64,000 nucleotides of DNA from positions 10,338 to 74,337 of IMG/VR virus record IMGVR_UViG_3300035703_000062. The stretch is one strand, 5' to 3'. Shown here one piece after another: positions 2,281-61,800 of this stretch. The DNA comes from a virus. A program made the translations under genes and the position numbers. Positions within the stretch are counted from its first letter, which is position 1; every line of letters starts with the position of its first letter. Below the pieces are notes generated by a model. The model made no database searches and was not told the DNA's origin. It was given only the letters and a program-made list of their open reading frames with translations.

Positions 2281-2442
2281 GAACGCTCCTCAGGCTTAGC
2301 TCTCAGACGGGGACCATTTTGTTGGCGCCAACAATATGGTCTCTAGAGATGATGCCCAAACAGAGGAGCCTCTGGATCCGAGGTGTTGGCACACGCCGTG
2401 CAAATAGCATGGAATACTGGGTTCGATTCCCAGCGGTCCCCA
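2281..2442 (+). ncRNA. Putative structured RNA: long rod (2285-2369) followed by a tRNA-like cloverleaf (2374-2442)
   Basis: Perfect T-arm CTGGG-TTCGATT-CCCAG; D stem GTGT/ACAC; anticodon-like stem CCGTG/CATGG; imperfect acceptor stem; upstream TAGCAT -10-like hexamer at 2269-2274. Confidence 0.6.
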
Positions 2443-3614: not shown

Positions 3615-3667
3615 GATGCTGGCCCCGTTCCGTGCCAGCGCGTCATGCGCCCCTTGCGGGGTGAACG
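3615..3667 (-). promoter_or_regulatory. Glutamine-II riboswitch (Downstream-peptide RNA motif)
   Basis: CGUUCACCCCGCAAGGGGCGCAUGACGCGCUGGCACGGAACGGGGCCAGC: P1 CGUUC/GAACG, P2 CCCC-GCAA-GGGG, short P3, pseudoknot GCUGGC/GCCAGC just 5' of the RBS. Confidence 0.9.
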
Positions 3668-3674
3668 TACCTTC

Positions 3675-58121: not shown

Positions 58122-58302
58122 TCGTCCGCTGTCTGATTCCGAATGGAATGAGATGGATGCCCTAAGGAGGGCCATTAAAGATGGCCCTCCGTCTGTAGCC
58201 TTCCACAAAATGGAACGCTTCTCAGAGTTGTTTGTAAGAACTCTGCCATACGAAGGCGATACAATTCCGGCAGCGTTGAAACCACCTGATGGCACAGCCT
58301 GA
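58111..58302 (+). CDS. Hypothetical protein
   Basis: L...EW.EM.ALR.AI...P.SV...MERF.ELF pattern. Confidence 0.55.
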   Translation: MTHDRPLSDSEWNEMDALRRAIKDGPPSVAFHKMERFSELFVRTLPYEGDTIPAALKPPDGTA

Positions 58303-58993
58303 AATTATCTTCAAGGACAAAGAAGAATGCACTCGGTATGCATTGAAAATTCTCACCGATGCAGGATTGTCCCCTGAAGAAATTGAGCGCGTAAGAGCCA
58401 AAAATAAGCCTGGCGTCAACATGGCAAAAGACCTTGTTGGCCTCAGGCGTCACATGGTGCAGGAGCTGTTGGCTGCCAACATGAGCAACCGACAGATTGC
58501 TGATGCATTGCAAATTGGCAAGGACACCGTAAATGCTGACCGGCACTACGCTCGTCAGCTCTATACGGAAAAGCTTCTCGCTTCCGCAGACGTGCATCGA
58601 GCACGTCTGCTCAAGGAGCAAATTGATCTCAAGGAAAAGGCCATGGAAGCCTTTGAGACCAGTAAGAAGAAAAAGACCACCACCATTCAAGATGGTGACG
58701 ACGGCCGCGGCGGCACGCAAATCAAAGTGGAAGAGAGTGCTGGCGATGCATCGTTCCTCAATGTGGCCAAGAACGCTCTAGTGGAGCAGGCTCGGCTCCT
58801 GGGCCTGCACGAGCTGAAGCGCGAAGAGCAGCAGGACAAGACGTATCAACAATTTCTTAAGGATTTGACTGTCACCATCGATAAGGAAAAACAGCTAAAG
58901 GAGGCCGACGATCTACGTGCAAATGCCTTGCCAGTGCAGGCTGGAGACGTAGTGGACGCTACAACAGTGCTGCCATCTACAGAATCTCTTTAG
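58289..58993 (+). CDS. Putative terminase small subunit (HTH)
   Basis: RR..V.ELL...MS.RQIADAL.I...TV..D HTH; GD.SFL.......QARLLGL. Confidence 0.6.
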   Translation: MAQPEIIFKDKEECTRYALKILTDAGLSPEEIERVRAKNKPGVNMAKDLVGLRRHMVQELLAANMSNRQIADALQIGKDTVNADRHYARQLYTEKLLASADVHRARLLKEQIDLKEKAMEAFETSKKKKTTTIQDGDDGRGGTQIKVEESAGDASFLNVAKNALVEQARLLGLHELKREEQQDKTYQQFLKDLTVTIDKEKQLKEADDLRANALPVQAGDVVDATTVLPSTESL

Positions 58994-60714: not shown

Positions 60715-60882
60715 ATGGAAGGAATGTCACAGCGTGAACTTATGCAGTGGATGATGAAGCCTTCTGAATTCTTTGATGAGATGGCCTATCGAGCAAGGCG
60801 CCTAGAAAAGCGCCTTGCCAAGCTCAAACAGAAAGAAGAAGAGAAGATCTTGGAGCTTTATCGTCAGTCAGTTTCCATTTGA
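60715..60882 (+). CDS. Small hypothetical protein (55 aa)
   Basis: GGAGAGG upstream; hairpin GGCCCC/GGGGCC + T tract follows (60888-60912). Confidence 0.55.
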   Translation: MEGMSQRELMQWMMKPSEFFDEMAYRARRLEKRLAKLKQKEEEKILELYRQSVSI

Positions 60883-61028
60883 TTATTGGCCCCATCAGGG
60901 GCCTTTTCTTTTGCCCATGTGTGATCACCGGGAATGGGCTCGGTTCCATAGGCCCAGTCGTCATAGTGCTCACCATTGCGCAACCACCTGGCCAGGCGTT
61001 CACGCTCTTGCTCTGGGGACAGCTTCAT
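60864..61028 (-). CDS. Small hypothetical protein (54 aa, DW.YGTEPIPGD motif)
   Basis: MKLSPEQERERLARWLRNGEHYDDWAYGTEPIPGDHTW.. Confidence 0.55.
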   Translation of the reverse strand: MKLSPEQERERLARWLRNGEHYDDWAYGTEPIPGDHTWAKEKAPDGANNQMETD

Positions 61029-61075
61029 CGGGGTCCGGCTTCGCTCGTATAGAGACTAGCTAGGTCCGTATAAGC

Positions 61076-61108
61076 AAAAGAAAAGGAGGGCTTTCGCCCT
61101 CCCTTTCT
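61076..61108 (-). terminator. Strong terminator
   Basis: Minus strand GGAGGGC-GAAA-GCCCTCC-TTTTCTTTT. Confidence 0.85.
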
Positions 61109-61110
61109 CT

Positions 61111-61292
61111 GTGGCTTCCGATAAGCGATTTAGCAGGAGATGAACTCGACCGCAGGTACAGTGCGCTCCTGAGGCTCATGCGTGCCTTGGCTTGGTCGCA
61201 ACGACCGCGCCCACACTGTCACGCCCGTCCACCCTTACGGCCCGCTGCTAGGGAACAACGAGGAGAGCCGTTAAGCCCTCAGGACCAACCAC
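61111..61292 (-). ncRNA. Unassigned pseudoknotted ncRNA (about 180 nt plus terminator)
   Basis: Extended -10 TGC-TACTAT (61307-61299), closing stem GUGGUU/AGCCAC, several nested stems with G-U pairs, 8-bp pseudoknot, terminator. Confidence 0.7.
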
Positions 61293-61443
61293 TCCGAAAT
61301 AGTAGCACCTGCCACTCCGAGCGCTCCCAGGAATCCTGTAGCAAATGTGAAGAACCCGGCAGCGGAGCCTGCAGATGGGACACAATGGTGGGACTGCGAC
61401 TGGGCGACTGGCGCAAGCTCCTGGACTTACCCCCCTCTTCTTG

Positions 61444-61800
61444 ATGCTTCGTTTCCTTTCTTCTGTCCTGCTGCTCAGTGCCATTGCCCCTCAGGCACAA
61501 GCAGCAGCGTTTCAATGCGGCCAGGCAAGCCATTACGGCATCGGTGATGGCTACCACGGCCAGCGCACTGCAAGCGGCCAGCGCTTTGATGCCTACGCCA
61601 TGACTGCCGCCCATCCATCGCTGCCACTGGGTTCCCGCGTCCGCGTAAAGAATCGTGACAATGGGAAAACCGTGCTTGTGACCATCAATGACCGTGGCCC
61701 TTACGCTGGTGGCCGCGTGCTTGATCTGTCCTACGGCAGCTTCTCGCGCATTGCTTCGCCCGGTCAGGGCGTAGCCAACGTCTGCATCTCCCGAGCCTGA
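61444..61800 (+). CDS. rlpA: RlpA-like lytic transglycosylase (DPBB) with signal peptide
   Basis: GQASHYG, HGQRTASG.RFD...TAAH.SLP.G, V.INDRGPY..GR.LDLS. Confidence 0.93.
   Translation: MLRFLSSVLLLSAIAPQAQAAAFQCGQASHYGIGDGYHGQRTASGQRFDAYAMTAAHPSLPLGSRVRVKNRDNGKTVLVTINDRGPYAGGRVLDLSYGSFSRIASPGQGVANVCISRA

What the first reader, a model, noticed from the sequence alone, without database searches (positions are those of the whole stretch)
61076..61307. Stand-alone pseudoknotted ncRNA gene of unknown family
Seen on the minus strand: extended -10 TGCTACTAT; 5' GUGGUU pairing with 3' AGCCAC; UCCUGAGGGCUU (61284-73)/GAGCCUCAGGA (61177-67); ACGGCUC/GGGCCGU enclosing CGUUGUU/AGCAGCG; GCGUG/CACGC enclosing GGUCG/CGACC; a crossing 8-bp helix ACAGUGUG (61219-12)/CGCACUGU (61165-58); then a GAAA-capped terminator with a U tract. 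Several pairs are G-U only on this strand, which points to selection at the RNA level. I recognise no riboswitch, 6S, tmRNA or small ribozyme consensus. Inference: a new structured phage RNA (ribozyme, decoy or anti-defence sponge).
Basis: partly seen in the sequence, partly recalled or inferred. Interest (0 to 1): 0.8.

Follow-up and report, generated by a model that had tools for sequence, protein, structure and literature searches.

The report
New folded RNA gene of cyanophages
The flagged stretch is a real, separately transcribed, intricately folded non-coding RNA of about 217 bases, conserved in relatives of the cyanobacterial virus S-CBS4; it matches no catalogued RNA family, and what it does is not known.

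Summary
Real, and new as a family. On the minus strand, a conserved extended -10 promoter (61299-61307) starts a ~217-nt RNA that ends at a strong intrinsic terminator (61076-61109).

I collected 50 distinct homologues (25 lineages at 88% identity), all from S-CBS4-like cyanosiphophage contigs. Across them, 97% of cells are base-paired. 54 of 68 pairs show compensatory changes, against 24-28 pairs when partners are slid.

- Confirmed: promoter, closing helix P1, the CGUUGUU/AGCAGCG and GGUCG/CGACC hairpins, the ACAGUGUG/CGCACUGU helix, and the terminator.
- Rejected: three other helices score no better than shuffles. Without them there is no pseudoknot and the fold is fully nested.
- Added: P2 (closing a four-way junction with an invariant CC-GNRA-GG hairpin), long-range P7, P5 and P6, and an invariant AUCGGA junction strand.

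There is no Rfam 15 match, even at E<=10. The RNA is not coding. It is not tied to one downstream gene, and that gene has its own -10-like box.

My best reading is a stand-alone RNA that acts through its 3-D fold by binding a protein or ligand, and may self-associate. Its function remains unknown.

The scan found this same family earlier on another genome (e1-5862055), with the same verdict.

The parts
61299..61307 (-). Extended -10 promoter, TG-c-TACTAT (hexamer 61299-61304, TG 61306-61307). The predicted start is at about 61292-61294.
   Evidence: A TAnnnT hexamer lies 6-9 nt upstream of P1 in 25/25 lineage representatives, with TGn in 22/25 (sequences). No conserved -35 was seen.
61076..61292 (-). 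The whole predicted transcript, about 217 nt, from the first P1 base to the end of the terminator U tract.
   Evidence: Covariance-model hit at 61079-61295, 201-228 bits. The transcript ends are inferred from the promoter and terminator and were not measured.
61287..61292 (-). P1, 5' strand (GUGGUU).
   Evidence: Pairs with 61111-61116. It is 100% paired in 50 sequences, with 5 of 6 pairs compensatory, and was recovered de novo on a structure-blind alignment.
61111..61116 (-). P1, 3' strand (AGCCAC).
61282..61285 (-). P2, 5' strand (GUCC). P2 closes a four-way junction.
   Evidence: Pairs with GGAC at 61227-61230. It is 100% paired and 3 of 4 pairs are compensatory (GCUU/AAGC, GUUC/GAAC, GCCC/GGGC).
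61227..61230 (-). P2, 3' strand (GGAC).
61263..61280 (-). P2a hairpin (GAGGGC-UUAACG-GCUCUC).
   Evidence: 96.8% paired, with 3 compensatory pairs. The loop is UUAAYN or GAAA in relatives.
61241..61262 (-). P2b hairpin.
   Evidence: 93.6% paired, 6 of 7 pairs compensatory, with a variable loop.
61233..61240 (-). P2c: the invariant CC-GUAA-GG mini-hairpin with a GNRA tetraloop.
   Evidence: GCCG-YR-AGG is invariant in all 50 sequences. The loop varies only as GUAA, GUGA, GCAA or GCGA.
61222..61226 (-). P7, 5' strand (GGGCG), directly 3' of P2.
   Evidence: Pairs with CGCUU at 61123-61127. It is 99.6% paired on A5. On the structure-blind alignment A6 it is 96.8% paired, against 59% in shuffles and 34-56% when slid, and all 5 pairs are compensatory.
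61123..61127 (-). P7, 3' strand (CGCUU), directly 5' of AUCGGA.
61212..61219 (-). P3, 5' strand (ACAGUGUG).
   Evidence: Pairs with 61158-61165. It is 99.3% paired and 8 of 8 pairs are compensatory. The helix is nested, not crossing.
61158..61165 (-). P3, 3' strand (CGCACUGU).
61189..61211 (-). P4 hairpin with an internal loop (GGC..GGUCG-UUG-CGACC..GCC).
   Evidence: The outer and inner stems are 97-99% paired and all 6 modelled pairs are compensatory. Per-sequence folds agree.
61172..61187 (-). P5 hairpin (AGGC-ACGCAUGA-GCCU). The loop carries a conserved CAUG.
   Evidence: 99.5% paired, with 3 of 4 pairs compensatory. A self-complementary tetramer is present in the loop in 24/25 lineages, against 9.4 expected from shuffling.
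61166..61171 (-). J5/3, a purine-rich junction strand (CAGGAG; GAGAGG or GCGAGG in relatives).
   Evidence: Conserved and unpaired.
61133..61153 (-). P6, a variable hairpin (GCGG..GAG-UUCAU-CUC-CUGC).
   Evidence: A local hairpin is present in every homologue when folded alone. It aligns poorly, giving 83% paired on A5.
61117..61122 (-). J7/1: the invariant AUCGGA strand of the P1/P2/P7 three-way junction.
   Evidence: Invariant in all 50 sequences. No partner was found by covariation scan.
61076..61109 (-). Intrinsic terminator: a 13-15-bp stem, GAAA loop and U tract.
   Evidence: 13 pairs, 98.5% paired, 10 compensatory. A U tract is present in all homologues.
61047..61072 (-). Conserved element between the terminator and the next gene (TATAC-N16-CTATAC, with CTAGCTAG and TAGTCT at 61053-61058). 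It is probably that gene's own -10 or operator, not part of the RNA.
   Evidence: Unique in the window. A TAGNCT box is present in 17/25 lineages, and TATAAT-like boxes in others.
60864..61028 (-). Downstream 54-aa acidic ORF (MKLSPEQERERLARWL...EPIPGD.TW). It is a frequent neighbour, not part of the RNA.
   Evidence: Relatives in 47 viral loci; 38 of them carry the RNA, which ends 35-65 nt upstream of the ORF. Third-codon-position changes are visible. No Pfam or PHROG family.
61444..61800 (+). Divergently transcribed RlpA-like (DPBB) lipoprotein gene. It is a syntenic neighbour only.
   Evidence: Pfam DPBB_1, E = 5e-24. The RNA lies next to the 30 closest RlpA homologues and is absent from about 49 more distant ones.

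Best explanation
This is a stand-alone gene for a compactly folded non-coding RNA, carried by S-CBS4-like cyanosiphophages.

Shown:
- A sigma-70-type extended -10 promoter starts transcription at, or 1-2 nt before, the first base of helix P1.
- The RNA folds into a fully nested structure.
- P1 closes a three-way junction made of P1, P2 and P7, with the invariant strand AUCGGA.
- P2 opens into a four-way junction (P2a, P2b and an invariant CC-GNRA-GG hairpin).
- P7 encloses P3 (which carries P4 and P5) and the variable P6.
- A very stable terminator follows P1 without overlapping it.

Inferred:
- The RNA is made early by host RNA polymerase and released as a discrete RNA of about 217 nt.
- It acts in trans through its three-dimensional fold, not through long antisense pairing and not as a leader.
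- The likely functional core is the conserved junction, the GNRA hairpin, the purine-rich J5/3 strand and the CAUG loop of P5. This core would bind a specific partner (a host or phage protein, or a small ligand) to sequester or redirect it during infection.
- The self-complementary P5 loop may also let the RNA pair with itself.
- The partner and the benefit to the phage are unknown.
For: Structure:
- On alignment A5 (50 sequences), 97.0% of cells are paired, against 78.2% in shuffles and 47-51% when partners are slid.
- 54/68 pairs have compensatory changes, against 24-28 when slid.
- A structure-blind MAFFT alignment with RNAalifold recovers P1, P2, P2a, P2b, P2c, P3 and the terminator. P7 holds on that alignment too.
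- G-U pairs fix the strand.

Separate transcription unit:
- A -10 box lies 6-9 nt before P1 in 25/25 lineages.
- The terminator is conserved and covaries.
- The downstream gene has its own -10-like box just after the terminator.
- Three or more divergent lineages (L118, L100, L130) carry a different downstream gene.
- In L082 and L046, an extra hairpin and about 60 nt separate the terminator from that gene.

Not coding: frames starting at the P5-loop AUG run 4-83 aa and are unrelated to each other.

Not an antisense or template RNA: nothing else in the window matches or complements the RNA beyond 13 nt.

The terminator is not a switch:
- P1 and the terminator do not overlap; they are 1-10 nt apart.
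- The terminator stem is 13-15 bp.
- No conserved antiterminator pairing appeared in a covariation scan.

Fold-based function: the invariant bases sit in junctions and loops, and there are two or three GNRA-type loops.

No known family.
Against: - No direct evidence of the transcript or its ends. The only RNA data are metatranscriptome contigs from relatives. These also span the neighbouring gene, so DNA carry-over cannot be excluded.
- No partner, ligand or activity is known.
- A same-strand gene always starts 31-100 nt after the terminator, as it would for a leader.
- The -10-like boxes proposed for that gene are weak (TAGNCT).
- A tertiary pseudoknot involving poorly aligned loops cannot be excluded.
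- Cyanobacterial genomes could not be searched with the model. A host-derived origin or a host counterpart is therefore untested beyond an exact 18-mer scan.
Confidence: 0.6

Rival explanations
1. The RNA is a cis-acting leader (a riboswitch or protein-controlled attenuator). The folded domain would sense a signal and set how much transcription passes the terminator into the downstream small gene.
For: - The layout is the classical one for termination riboswitches: promoter, folded domain closed by P1, terminator, then an ORF 31-65 nt later on the same strand.
- This layout is seen in nearly all homologues.
- The fold complexity and the conserved junction bases resemble an aptamer.
- The same phage also uses a glutamine-II riboswitch upstream of a short ORF.
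Against: - P1 and the terminator do not share bases; they are 1-10 nt apart.
- The terminator stem is 13-15 bp and highly stable.
- No conserved alternative (antiterminator) pairing was found (and inspection).
- The downstream gene differs in divergent lineages.
- A conserved -10-like box sits between the terminator and the gene.
- L082 and L046 have an extra inserted hairpin there.
Confidence: 0.13
2. The RNA is self-assembling or catalytic. It would be either an RNA-only homo-oligomer, joined through the self-complementary P5 loop and GNRA contacts, or a ribozyme.
For: - The P5 loop holds a self-complementary tetramer in 24/25 lineages, against 9.4 expected. Lineages that lost CAUG have CUAG or UUAA elsewhere in the loop.
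- The RNA has several GNRA-type loops.
- Other orphan phage-associated RNAs form RNA-only assemblies through kissing loops and GNRA-receptor contacts. Examples are GOLLD and ROOL (PMC12286853) and the cyanophage manA motif (bioRxiv 10.64898/2026.07.01.735769).
Against: - The palindrome signal is mostly plain conservation of CAUG in 19 of 25 lineages.
- The replacements amount to only two independent events, and one lineage (L138) has no palindrome.
- A 4-bp kissing contact is weak.
- There is no sequence or model similarity to any ribozyme or to manA, GOLLD or ROOL.
- No experiment has been done.
Confidence: 0.15
3. The RNA is a base-pairing regulatory sRNA. It would target host or phage mRNAs through a short exposed seed, such as the P5 loop or J5/3.
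For: It is a stand-alone sRNA gene with its own promoter and terminator. It has conserved unpaired stretches: CAUGG, the GAGG-like J5/3 strand, and AUCGGA.
Against: - Nearly all of the RNA is locked in covarying helices, which is far more structure than seed-type sRNAs need.
- The invariant bases lie in junctions.
- There is no complementarity longer than 13 nt within the phage.
- Host targets could not be searched.
Confidence: 0.08
4. There is no functional RNA. The signal would come from a conserved DNA element, a missed protein-coding gene, or chance pairing in GC-rich intergenic DNA.
For: The single-sequence folding z-score is only -2.0. No transcript has been measured.
Against: - 54 pairs have compensatory changes, and many G-U pairs would be A-C mismatches on the other strand.
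- The signal survives a structure-blind alignment.
- Internal frames are not conserved.
- The promoter and terminator are conserved at fixed distances.
Confidence: 0.02

Closest known systems
Orphan complex-folded RNAs linked to phages or prophages: GOLLD, ROOL (and raiA, OLE)
   Same: They were found only by comparative genomics. They are multi-junction folds with strong covariation and GNRA-type loops, are encoded by phages or prophages, and have no known function. GOLLD and ROOL form RNA-only assemblies (PMC12286853).
   Different: Those RNAs are 200-800 nt and occur in other hosts (Bacillota, Actinomycetota, lake metagenomes). There is no sequence or covariance-model similarity. This RNA is about 180 nt without its terminator and is restricted to S-CBS4-like cyanosiphophages.
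manA RNA motif (Rfam) of T4-like cyanophages and Photobacterium
   Same: It is a structured RNA under 200 nt carried by cyanophages, with many hairpins around junctions. It was recently shown to assemble through kissing loops and a GNRA-receptor contact (bioRxiv 10.64898/2026.07.01.735769).
   Different: manA lies in 5' UTRs as a putative cis element. The RNA here has its own terminator. There is no match to the Rfam library, which includes manA, even at E<=10. The helix order and conserved bases differ.
Termination-type riboswitch aptamers, and the glutamine-II ('downstream-peptide') riboswitch present in this same phage
   Same: A P1-closed, junction-rich fold with conserved junction bases, followed by a terminator and a short ORF.
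   Different: No expression platform overlaps P1, the terminator is too strong to be tunable, the downstream gene is not constant, and there is no match to any riboswitch model.
phi29-type packaging RNA (pRNA)
   Same: A phage-encoded stable RNA of about 120-174 nt, transcribed near a genome end. Its 5' and 3' ends pair, it has a three-way junction, and it uses 4-nt loop-loop contacts to form multimers.
   Different: pRNA serves protein-primed podophages and binds their portal. This phage is a terminase-type siphophage with direct terminal repeats. There is no model match.
Type III toxin-antitoxin loci (toxI-terminator-toxN)
   Same: The gene order is the same: promoter, RNA, terminator, protein gene.
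   Different: toxI is a tandem array of 36-nt repeats processed by a toxin of about 170 aa. Here the RNA is a single non-repetitive fold, and the neighbour is a small acidic protein of 50-85 aa that is absent in some lineages.

Membership tests
Any Rfam 15 family (4227 models) | A covariance-model score at or above the family's gathering threshold. | tested here: not met
   The whole window has only Glutamine-II, at 3618-3670. At E<=10 over 60800-61600 there are only terminator-driven hits of 11-20 bits, against cut-offs of 38-114. Twelve divergent homologue loci give no hit, and E<=10 scans of L118 and L067 give junk only.
manA RNA motif / GOLLD / ROOL / raiA (orphan ornate RNAs) | A match to the family's consensus fold and conserved nucleotides (Rfam models). 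| tested here: not met
   None of these families appears at E<=10.
manA RNA motif / GOLLD / ROOL (RNA-only assemblies) | Homo-oligomer formation through intermolecular loop contacts. | not testable with these tools
   There is only a hint: a self-complementary tetramer in the P5 loop in 24/25 lineages.
Transcription-termination riboswitch | An aptamer whose P1 or 3' part competes with the terminator through a conserved antiterminator. | tested here: not met
   P1 and the terminator are separate by 1-10 nt. A covariation scan found no alternative helix other than trivial purine/U-tract matches (sequences).
Transcription-termination riboswitch | A functionally coherent set of downstream genes. 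| tested here: not met
   Most lineages have the small acidic ORF, but L118, L100 and L130 have unrelated genes. A -10-like box follows the terminator.
Transcription-termination riboswitch | Ligand binding. | not testable with these tools
   This needs in-line probing, ITC or similar assays.
tRNA / tmRNA / tRNA-like | A cloverleaf or tRNA-like domain detectable by ARAGORN or Rfam. | tested here: not met
   ARAGORN finds only a tRNA-Ile at 2374-2441. No T-loop consensus occurs in any loop.
phi29-type pRNA | A match to the Phage_pRNA model, in a protein-primed phi29-like genome. | tested here: not met
   No model hit. The genome is 74 kb with direct terminal repeats and a Phage_portal_3 portal.
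Type III antitoxin RNA | Tandem direct repeats upstream of a ToxN-like endoribonuclease gene. | tested here: not met
   The RNA has no internal repeat or second copy. The downstream ORF is 54 aa with no family.
   No similarity longer than 13 nt to any other part of the window. No RT gene nearby.

The most novel reading that the evidence does not exclude
The RNA is a fold-based effector of a kind not yet described for phages. It would be either a free-standing aptamer that soaks up a host signal or defence molecule, or an RNA-only homo-oligomer built through its self-complementary CAUG loop and GNRA contacts. In either case the phage would make it early, to reprogramme or disarm the cyanobacterial host.
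Probability: 0.15. Interest if true: 0.9.

Novelty: categorically new. Interest (0 to 1): 0.7.

Why it matters
New RNA classes with this degree of conserved, multi-junction structure are rare. In the past they have turned out to be riboswitches, ribozymes or RNP scaffolds, and more recently RNA-only assemblies.

- **Abundance.** This class is carried by an abundant group of freshwater, estuarine and marine picocyanobacterial viruses.
- **Experimental access.** One cultured member exists, S-CBS4 on Synechococcus CB0101, so the RNA can be studied directly.
- **Size.** About 180 nt is small enough for probing, crystallography or cryo-EM.
- **Caveat on novelty.** The family and its fold are new to the catalogues I could search. 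The general idea of orphan structured phage RNAs is not new. A 2023 catalogue of more than 8,000 short IMG/VR candidates (PMC10690425) may list a fragment of it; I could not check this.

Tried and rejected
- **Metatranscriptome contigs (X17-X20).** Contigs from close relatives cover the RNA: for example a 163-nt contig at 61112-61273 and a 153-nt contig at 61070-61210. A 1495-nt contig also runs on into rlpA. Contigs cannot show ends, strand or level, and DNA carry-over is possible. This is no proof of expression.
- **Cellular genomes.** An exact 18-mer scan of 185,579 species genomes gave four chance hits in non-cyanobacteria and no cellular copy.
- **Cultured phages.** blastn finds only S-CBS4. 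Two divergent homologues used as queries found nothing.
- **Supplement of PMC10690425.** It is not held, so overlap with that catalogue is unknown. Literature searches for S-CBS4, cyanosiphovirus and CB0101 with RNA terms found nothing on this RNA.
- **Hidden ORF from the P5-loop AUG.** Rejected.
None found.
- **Extra helices or pseudoknots among well-aligned unpaired columns.** Only purine/U-tract matches appeared. P5-loop pairing with CCGU of P2c was rejected because the loop does not covary with the GNRA bases (inspection).
- **RNAalifold's first model on 7 sequences.** It paired GUY with GGG and AUCG with YGGU. The P1 extension and the P7 and P6 helices replaced these once divergent homologues were added.
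- **Link to RlpA.** Rejected as functional. The RNA is absent next to about 49 more distant RlpA genes.

Full report
**Setting.** The window is the right-hand 64 kb of a 74,337-bp IMG/VR virus record with direct terminal repeats. It has a normal siphophage layout: portal, a 1584-aa tape-measure-size ORF, glucosaminidase/YkuD lysin, ThyX, a PD-(D/E)XK nuclease, Sak annealase and an AAA_25 primase-helicase. The flagged stretch lies about 2.7 kb from the right end, among small genes of unknown function. It sits in a 415-nt gap between a divergent RlpA-like (DPBB) gene on the plus strand (ATG at 61444) and a 54-aa ORF on the minus strand (61028-60864). The same gap is 70% identical over 401 nt in Synechococcus phage S-CBS4 and carries no annotation there.

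The single sequence folds only a little better than shuffles (z = -2.0), so I turned to comparison.

I collected homologues by several routes:
- A 20-mer and an 18-mer from the most conserved block found 7 viral and 31 metagenome stretches.
- Relatives of the small ORF gave 47 viral loci, of which 38 carry the RNA.
- A gapped pattern built on the invariant blocks GCCGNNAGG and ATCGGA added more distant copies.

This gave 50 distinct sequences in 25 lineages at 88% identity.

On the alignment to a covariance model with a curated structure (R2, A5):
- 97.0% of cells are standard pairs, against 78.2% after shuffling partners and 47-51% after sliding them.
- 54 of 68 pairs have changes on both sides, against 24-28 when slid.
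- The covariation score is 0.60, against 0.12-0.15 when slid.

That alignment is fitted to the structure, so I repeated the test without it. A plain MAFFT alignment of the 25 lineage representatives, folded by RNAalifold, recovers P1, P2, P2a, P2b, P2c, P3 and the terminator de novo. 30 of its 42 pairs are compensatory. On that same alignment the long-range helix P7 is 96.8% paired, against 59% shuffled and 34-56% slid, and all five pairs are compensatory. Many positions are G-U in most sequences, which fixes the minus strand as the RNA strand.

Right:
- the extended -10
- the closing helix GUGGUU/AGCCAC
- CGUUGUU/AGCAGCG
- GGUCG/CGACC
- ACAGUGUG/CGCACUGU
- the terminator

Wrong:
- UCCUGAGGGCUU/GAGCCUCAGGA
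- ACGGCUC/GGGCCGU
- GCGUG/CACGC

Tested on the 50 sequences, the three wrong helices are 65.0% paired, against 64.1% in shuffles. They have fewer covarying pairs than shuffles. Their bases belong to other, covarying helices. Once GCGUG/CACGC falls, the 8-bp helix crosses nothing. The supported fold is fully nested and there is no evidence of a pseudoknot. A scan of all well-aligned column pairs found no further helix.

**The fold, in window coordinates on the minus strand.**
- P1 (61287-92/61111-16) closes a three-way junction.
- One branch is P2 (61282-85/61227-30). It opens into a four-way junction with P2a (61263-80), P2b (61241-62) and P2c (61233-40).
- P2c is an invariant CC-GNRA-GG mini-hairpin whose loop varies only within GNRA.
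- The other branch is P7 (61222-26/61123-27), which starts directly after P2.
- P7 encloses P3 (61212-19/61158-65) and the variable hairpin P6 (61133-53).
- P3 carries P4 (61189-61211) and P5 (61172-87).
- The third strand of the P1/P2/P7 junction is AUCGGA (61117-22), invariant in all 50 sequences.
- Other conserved unpaired bases are the purine-rich J5/3 (61166-71) and a CAUG in the P5 loop.

**Is it a separate gene?**
- A TAnnnT hexamer lies 6-9 nt upstream of the first P1 base in 25/25 lineages, and TGn precedes it in 22/25. Transcription should therefore start at or just before P1.
- The terminator (61076-61109) has 13 modelled pairs, 98.5% paired, with 10 compensatory, and a U tract in every homologue.
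- It follows P1 after 1-10 nt without sharing bases with it. Its stem of 13-15 bp is much stronger than tunable riboswitch terminators usually are (this last point is my own knowledge, not tested here).
- Downstream, 17/25 lineages have a conserved TAGNCT box about 25 nt before the next ATG. Others have TATAAT-like boxes at the same place.
- L082 and L046 have an extra hairpin inserted there.
- Divergent lineages (L118, L100, L130) have unrelated downstream genes.
- From the other side, the RNA lies next to the 30 closest RlpA homologues, plus one at 63% identity. It is missing next to about 49 more distant ones.

The RNA is therefore a clade-specific module of S-CBS4-like phages. It is not an accessory of either neighbour. 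It is single-copy in this genome.

**What it is not.**
- It is not coding. Frames from the P5-loop AUG are 4-83 aa and unrelated to each other.
- It is not a template, repeat or antisense partner of anything else in the window.
- It is not a tRNA or tmRNA.
- It is not in Rfam 15. There is nothing at the gathering threshold in the window or in 12 divergent loci. At E<=10 there are only terminator look-alikes.
- Among 50,697 cultured phage records, only S-CBS4 has it.
- An exact 18-mer scan of 185,579 species genomes gave only four chance hits.
- I could not run the model on cyanobacterial genomes.

**Expression.** Three freshwater metatranscriptome runs hold contigs from 95%-identical relatives that cover the RNA. 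One contig runs on into rlpA, and contigs show neither ends nor strand. I treat this as not informative.

**How it most likely works.** I commit to a trans-acting RNA that works through its three-dimensional fold, binding a protein or small ligand. It would be made early by host polymerase.

Grounds for this reading:
- It has its own host-type promoter and an unconditional terminator.
- Almost every base is either in a covarying helix or is an invariant junction or loop base.
- It has GNRA-type loops, which are typical of compact tertiary folds.
- It lacks an antiterminator.
- Its downstream genes vary.

I give this 0.6 as stated. The purely structural part, that this is a real and independent structured RNA gene, I put above 0.9.

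Rivals:
- A leader or riboswitch for the small ORF: 0.13.
- A self-assembling or catalytic RNA: 0.15. This overlaps with the fold-based reading.
  - The hint is that the P5 loop contains a self-complementary tetramer in 24/25 lineages, against 9.4 expected. CUAG or UUAA appears where CAUG was lost.
  - That amounts to only two independent replacements.
  - The idea has context. GOLLD and ROOL (PMC12286853) and the cyanophage manA motif (bioRxiv 10.64898/2026.07.01.735769) form RNA-only assemblies through kissing loops and GNRA contacts.
- A seed-type sRNA: 0.08.
- No functional RNA: 0.02.

**Novelty.**
- The family matches nothing catalogued. The held literature on S-CBS4, cyanosiphoviruses or CB0101 does not mention it.
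- A 2023 catalogue of 8,495 short (29-151 nt) IMG/VR candidates could contain a fragment. Its files are not held.
- This scan met the same family before on another genome. Its follow-up agent reached the same verdict: a new folded RNA gene of cyanophages, function unknown (e1-5862055).
- My work agrees with that verdict. It adds a corrected, fully nested secondary structure with the new helix P7, rejection of the pseudoknot, and evidence that the RNA is independent of both neighbours.

Noticed in passing
window 3618-3670 (-), ORF to about 3482: A glutamine-II ('downstream-peptide') riboswitch (42.2 bits, cut-off 33). It is followed directly by a short frame, MNPLALIKQQLEKAARLREAQMASLVYRGVAYVPKPHWF, which is the usual arrangement for this class in cyanobacteria and their phages.
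   Followed up: partly
window 2374-2441 (+): ARAGORN calls a phage tRNA-Ile with anticodon AAU. That anticodon is unusual for bacteria. It was not examined further.
   Followed up: no
window 61047-61072 (-): A conserved element lies between the RNA's terminator and the small ORF: TATAC-N16-CTATAC around the palindrome CTAGCTAG and a TAGTCT box. It is unique in the window, and the TAGNCT box is conserved in 17/25 lineages. It may be the small gene's promoter plus an operator.
   Followed up: partly
window 60864-61028 (-): A small acidic protein family (MKLSPEQERERLARWL ... Y(D)DW.YGTEPIPGD.TW.KEKAPDGA), 50-85 aa, with no Pfam or PHROG match. It follows the RNA in most lineages. Its third-codon changes show that it is translated.
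   Followed up: partly
window 61360-61400 (both strands): A conserved CCAYTGTG motif sits between the RNA's promoter and the rlpA start in most homologues. On the plus strand it reads CACAATGG. It may be the rlpA -10 box or a shared operator of the divergent promoters.
   Followed up: no
window 60888-60903: A GC-rich hairpin (GGCCCC-ATCA-GGGGCC) with a T tract on the plus strand lies inside the 3' end of the small minus-strand ORF. It is probably the terminator of the converging plus-strand genes.
   Followed up: no
window 58289-58993 (+): This ORF matches PHROG 645, which is labelled 'Rnase E' (E = 2e-20). In Pfam it shows only weak HTH (GerE/HTH_23) signals. The RNase E label, inherited from the S-CBS4 annotation, looks doubtful.
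   Followed up: no
L082 and L046, first ~60 nt after the RNA's end (RNA at L082:2108-2333, L046:2193-2410): Two lineages carry an extra GC-rich hairpin and a short palindrome (TTGTGCAACAAGC) inserted between the RNA's terminator and the TAGNCT box.
   Followed up: no
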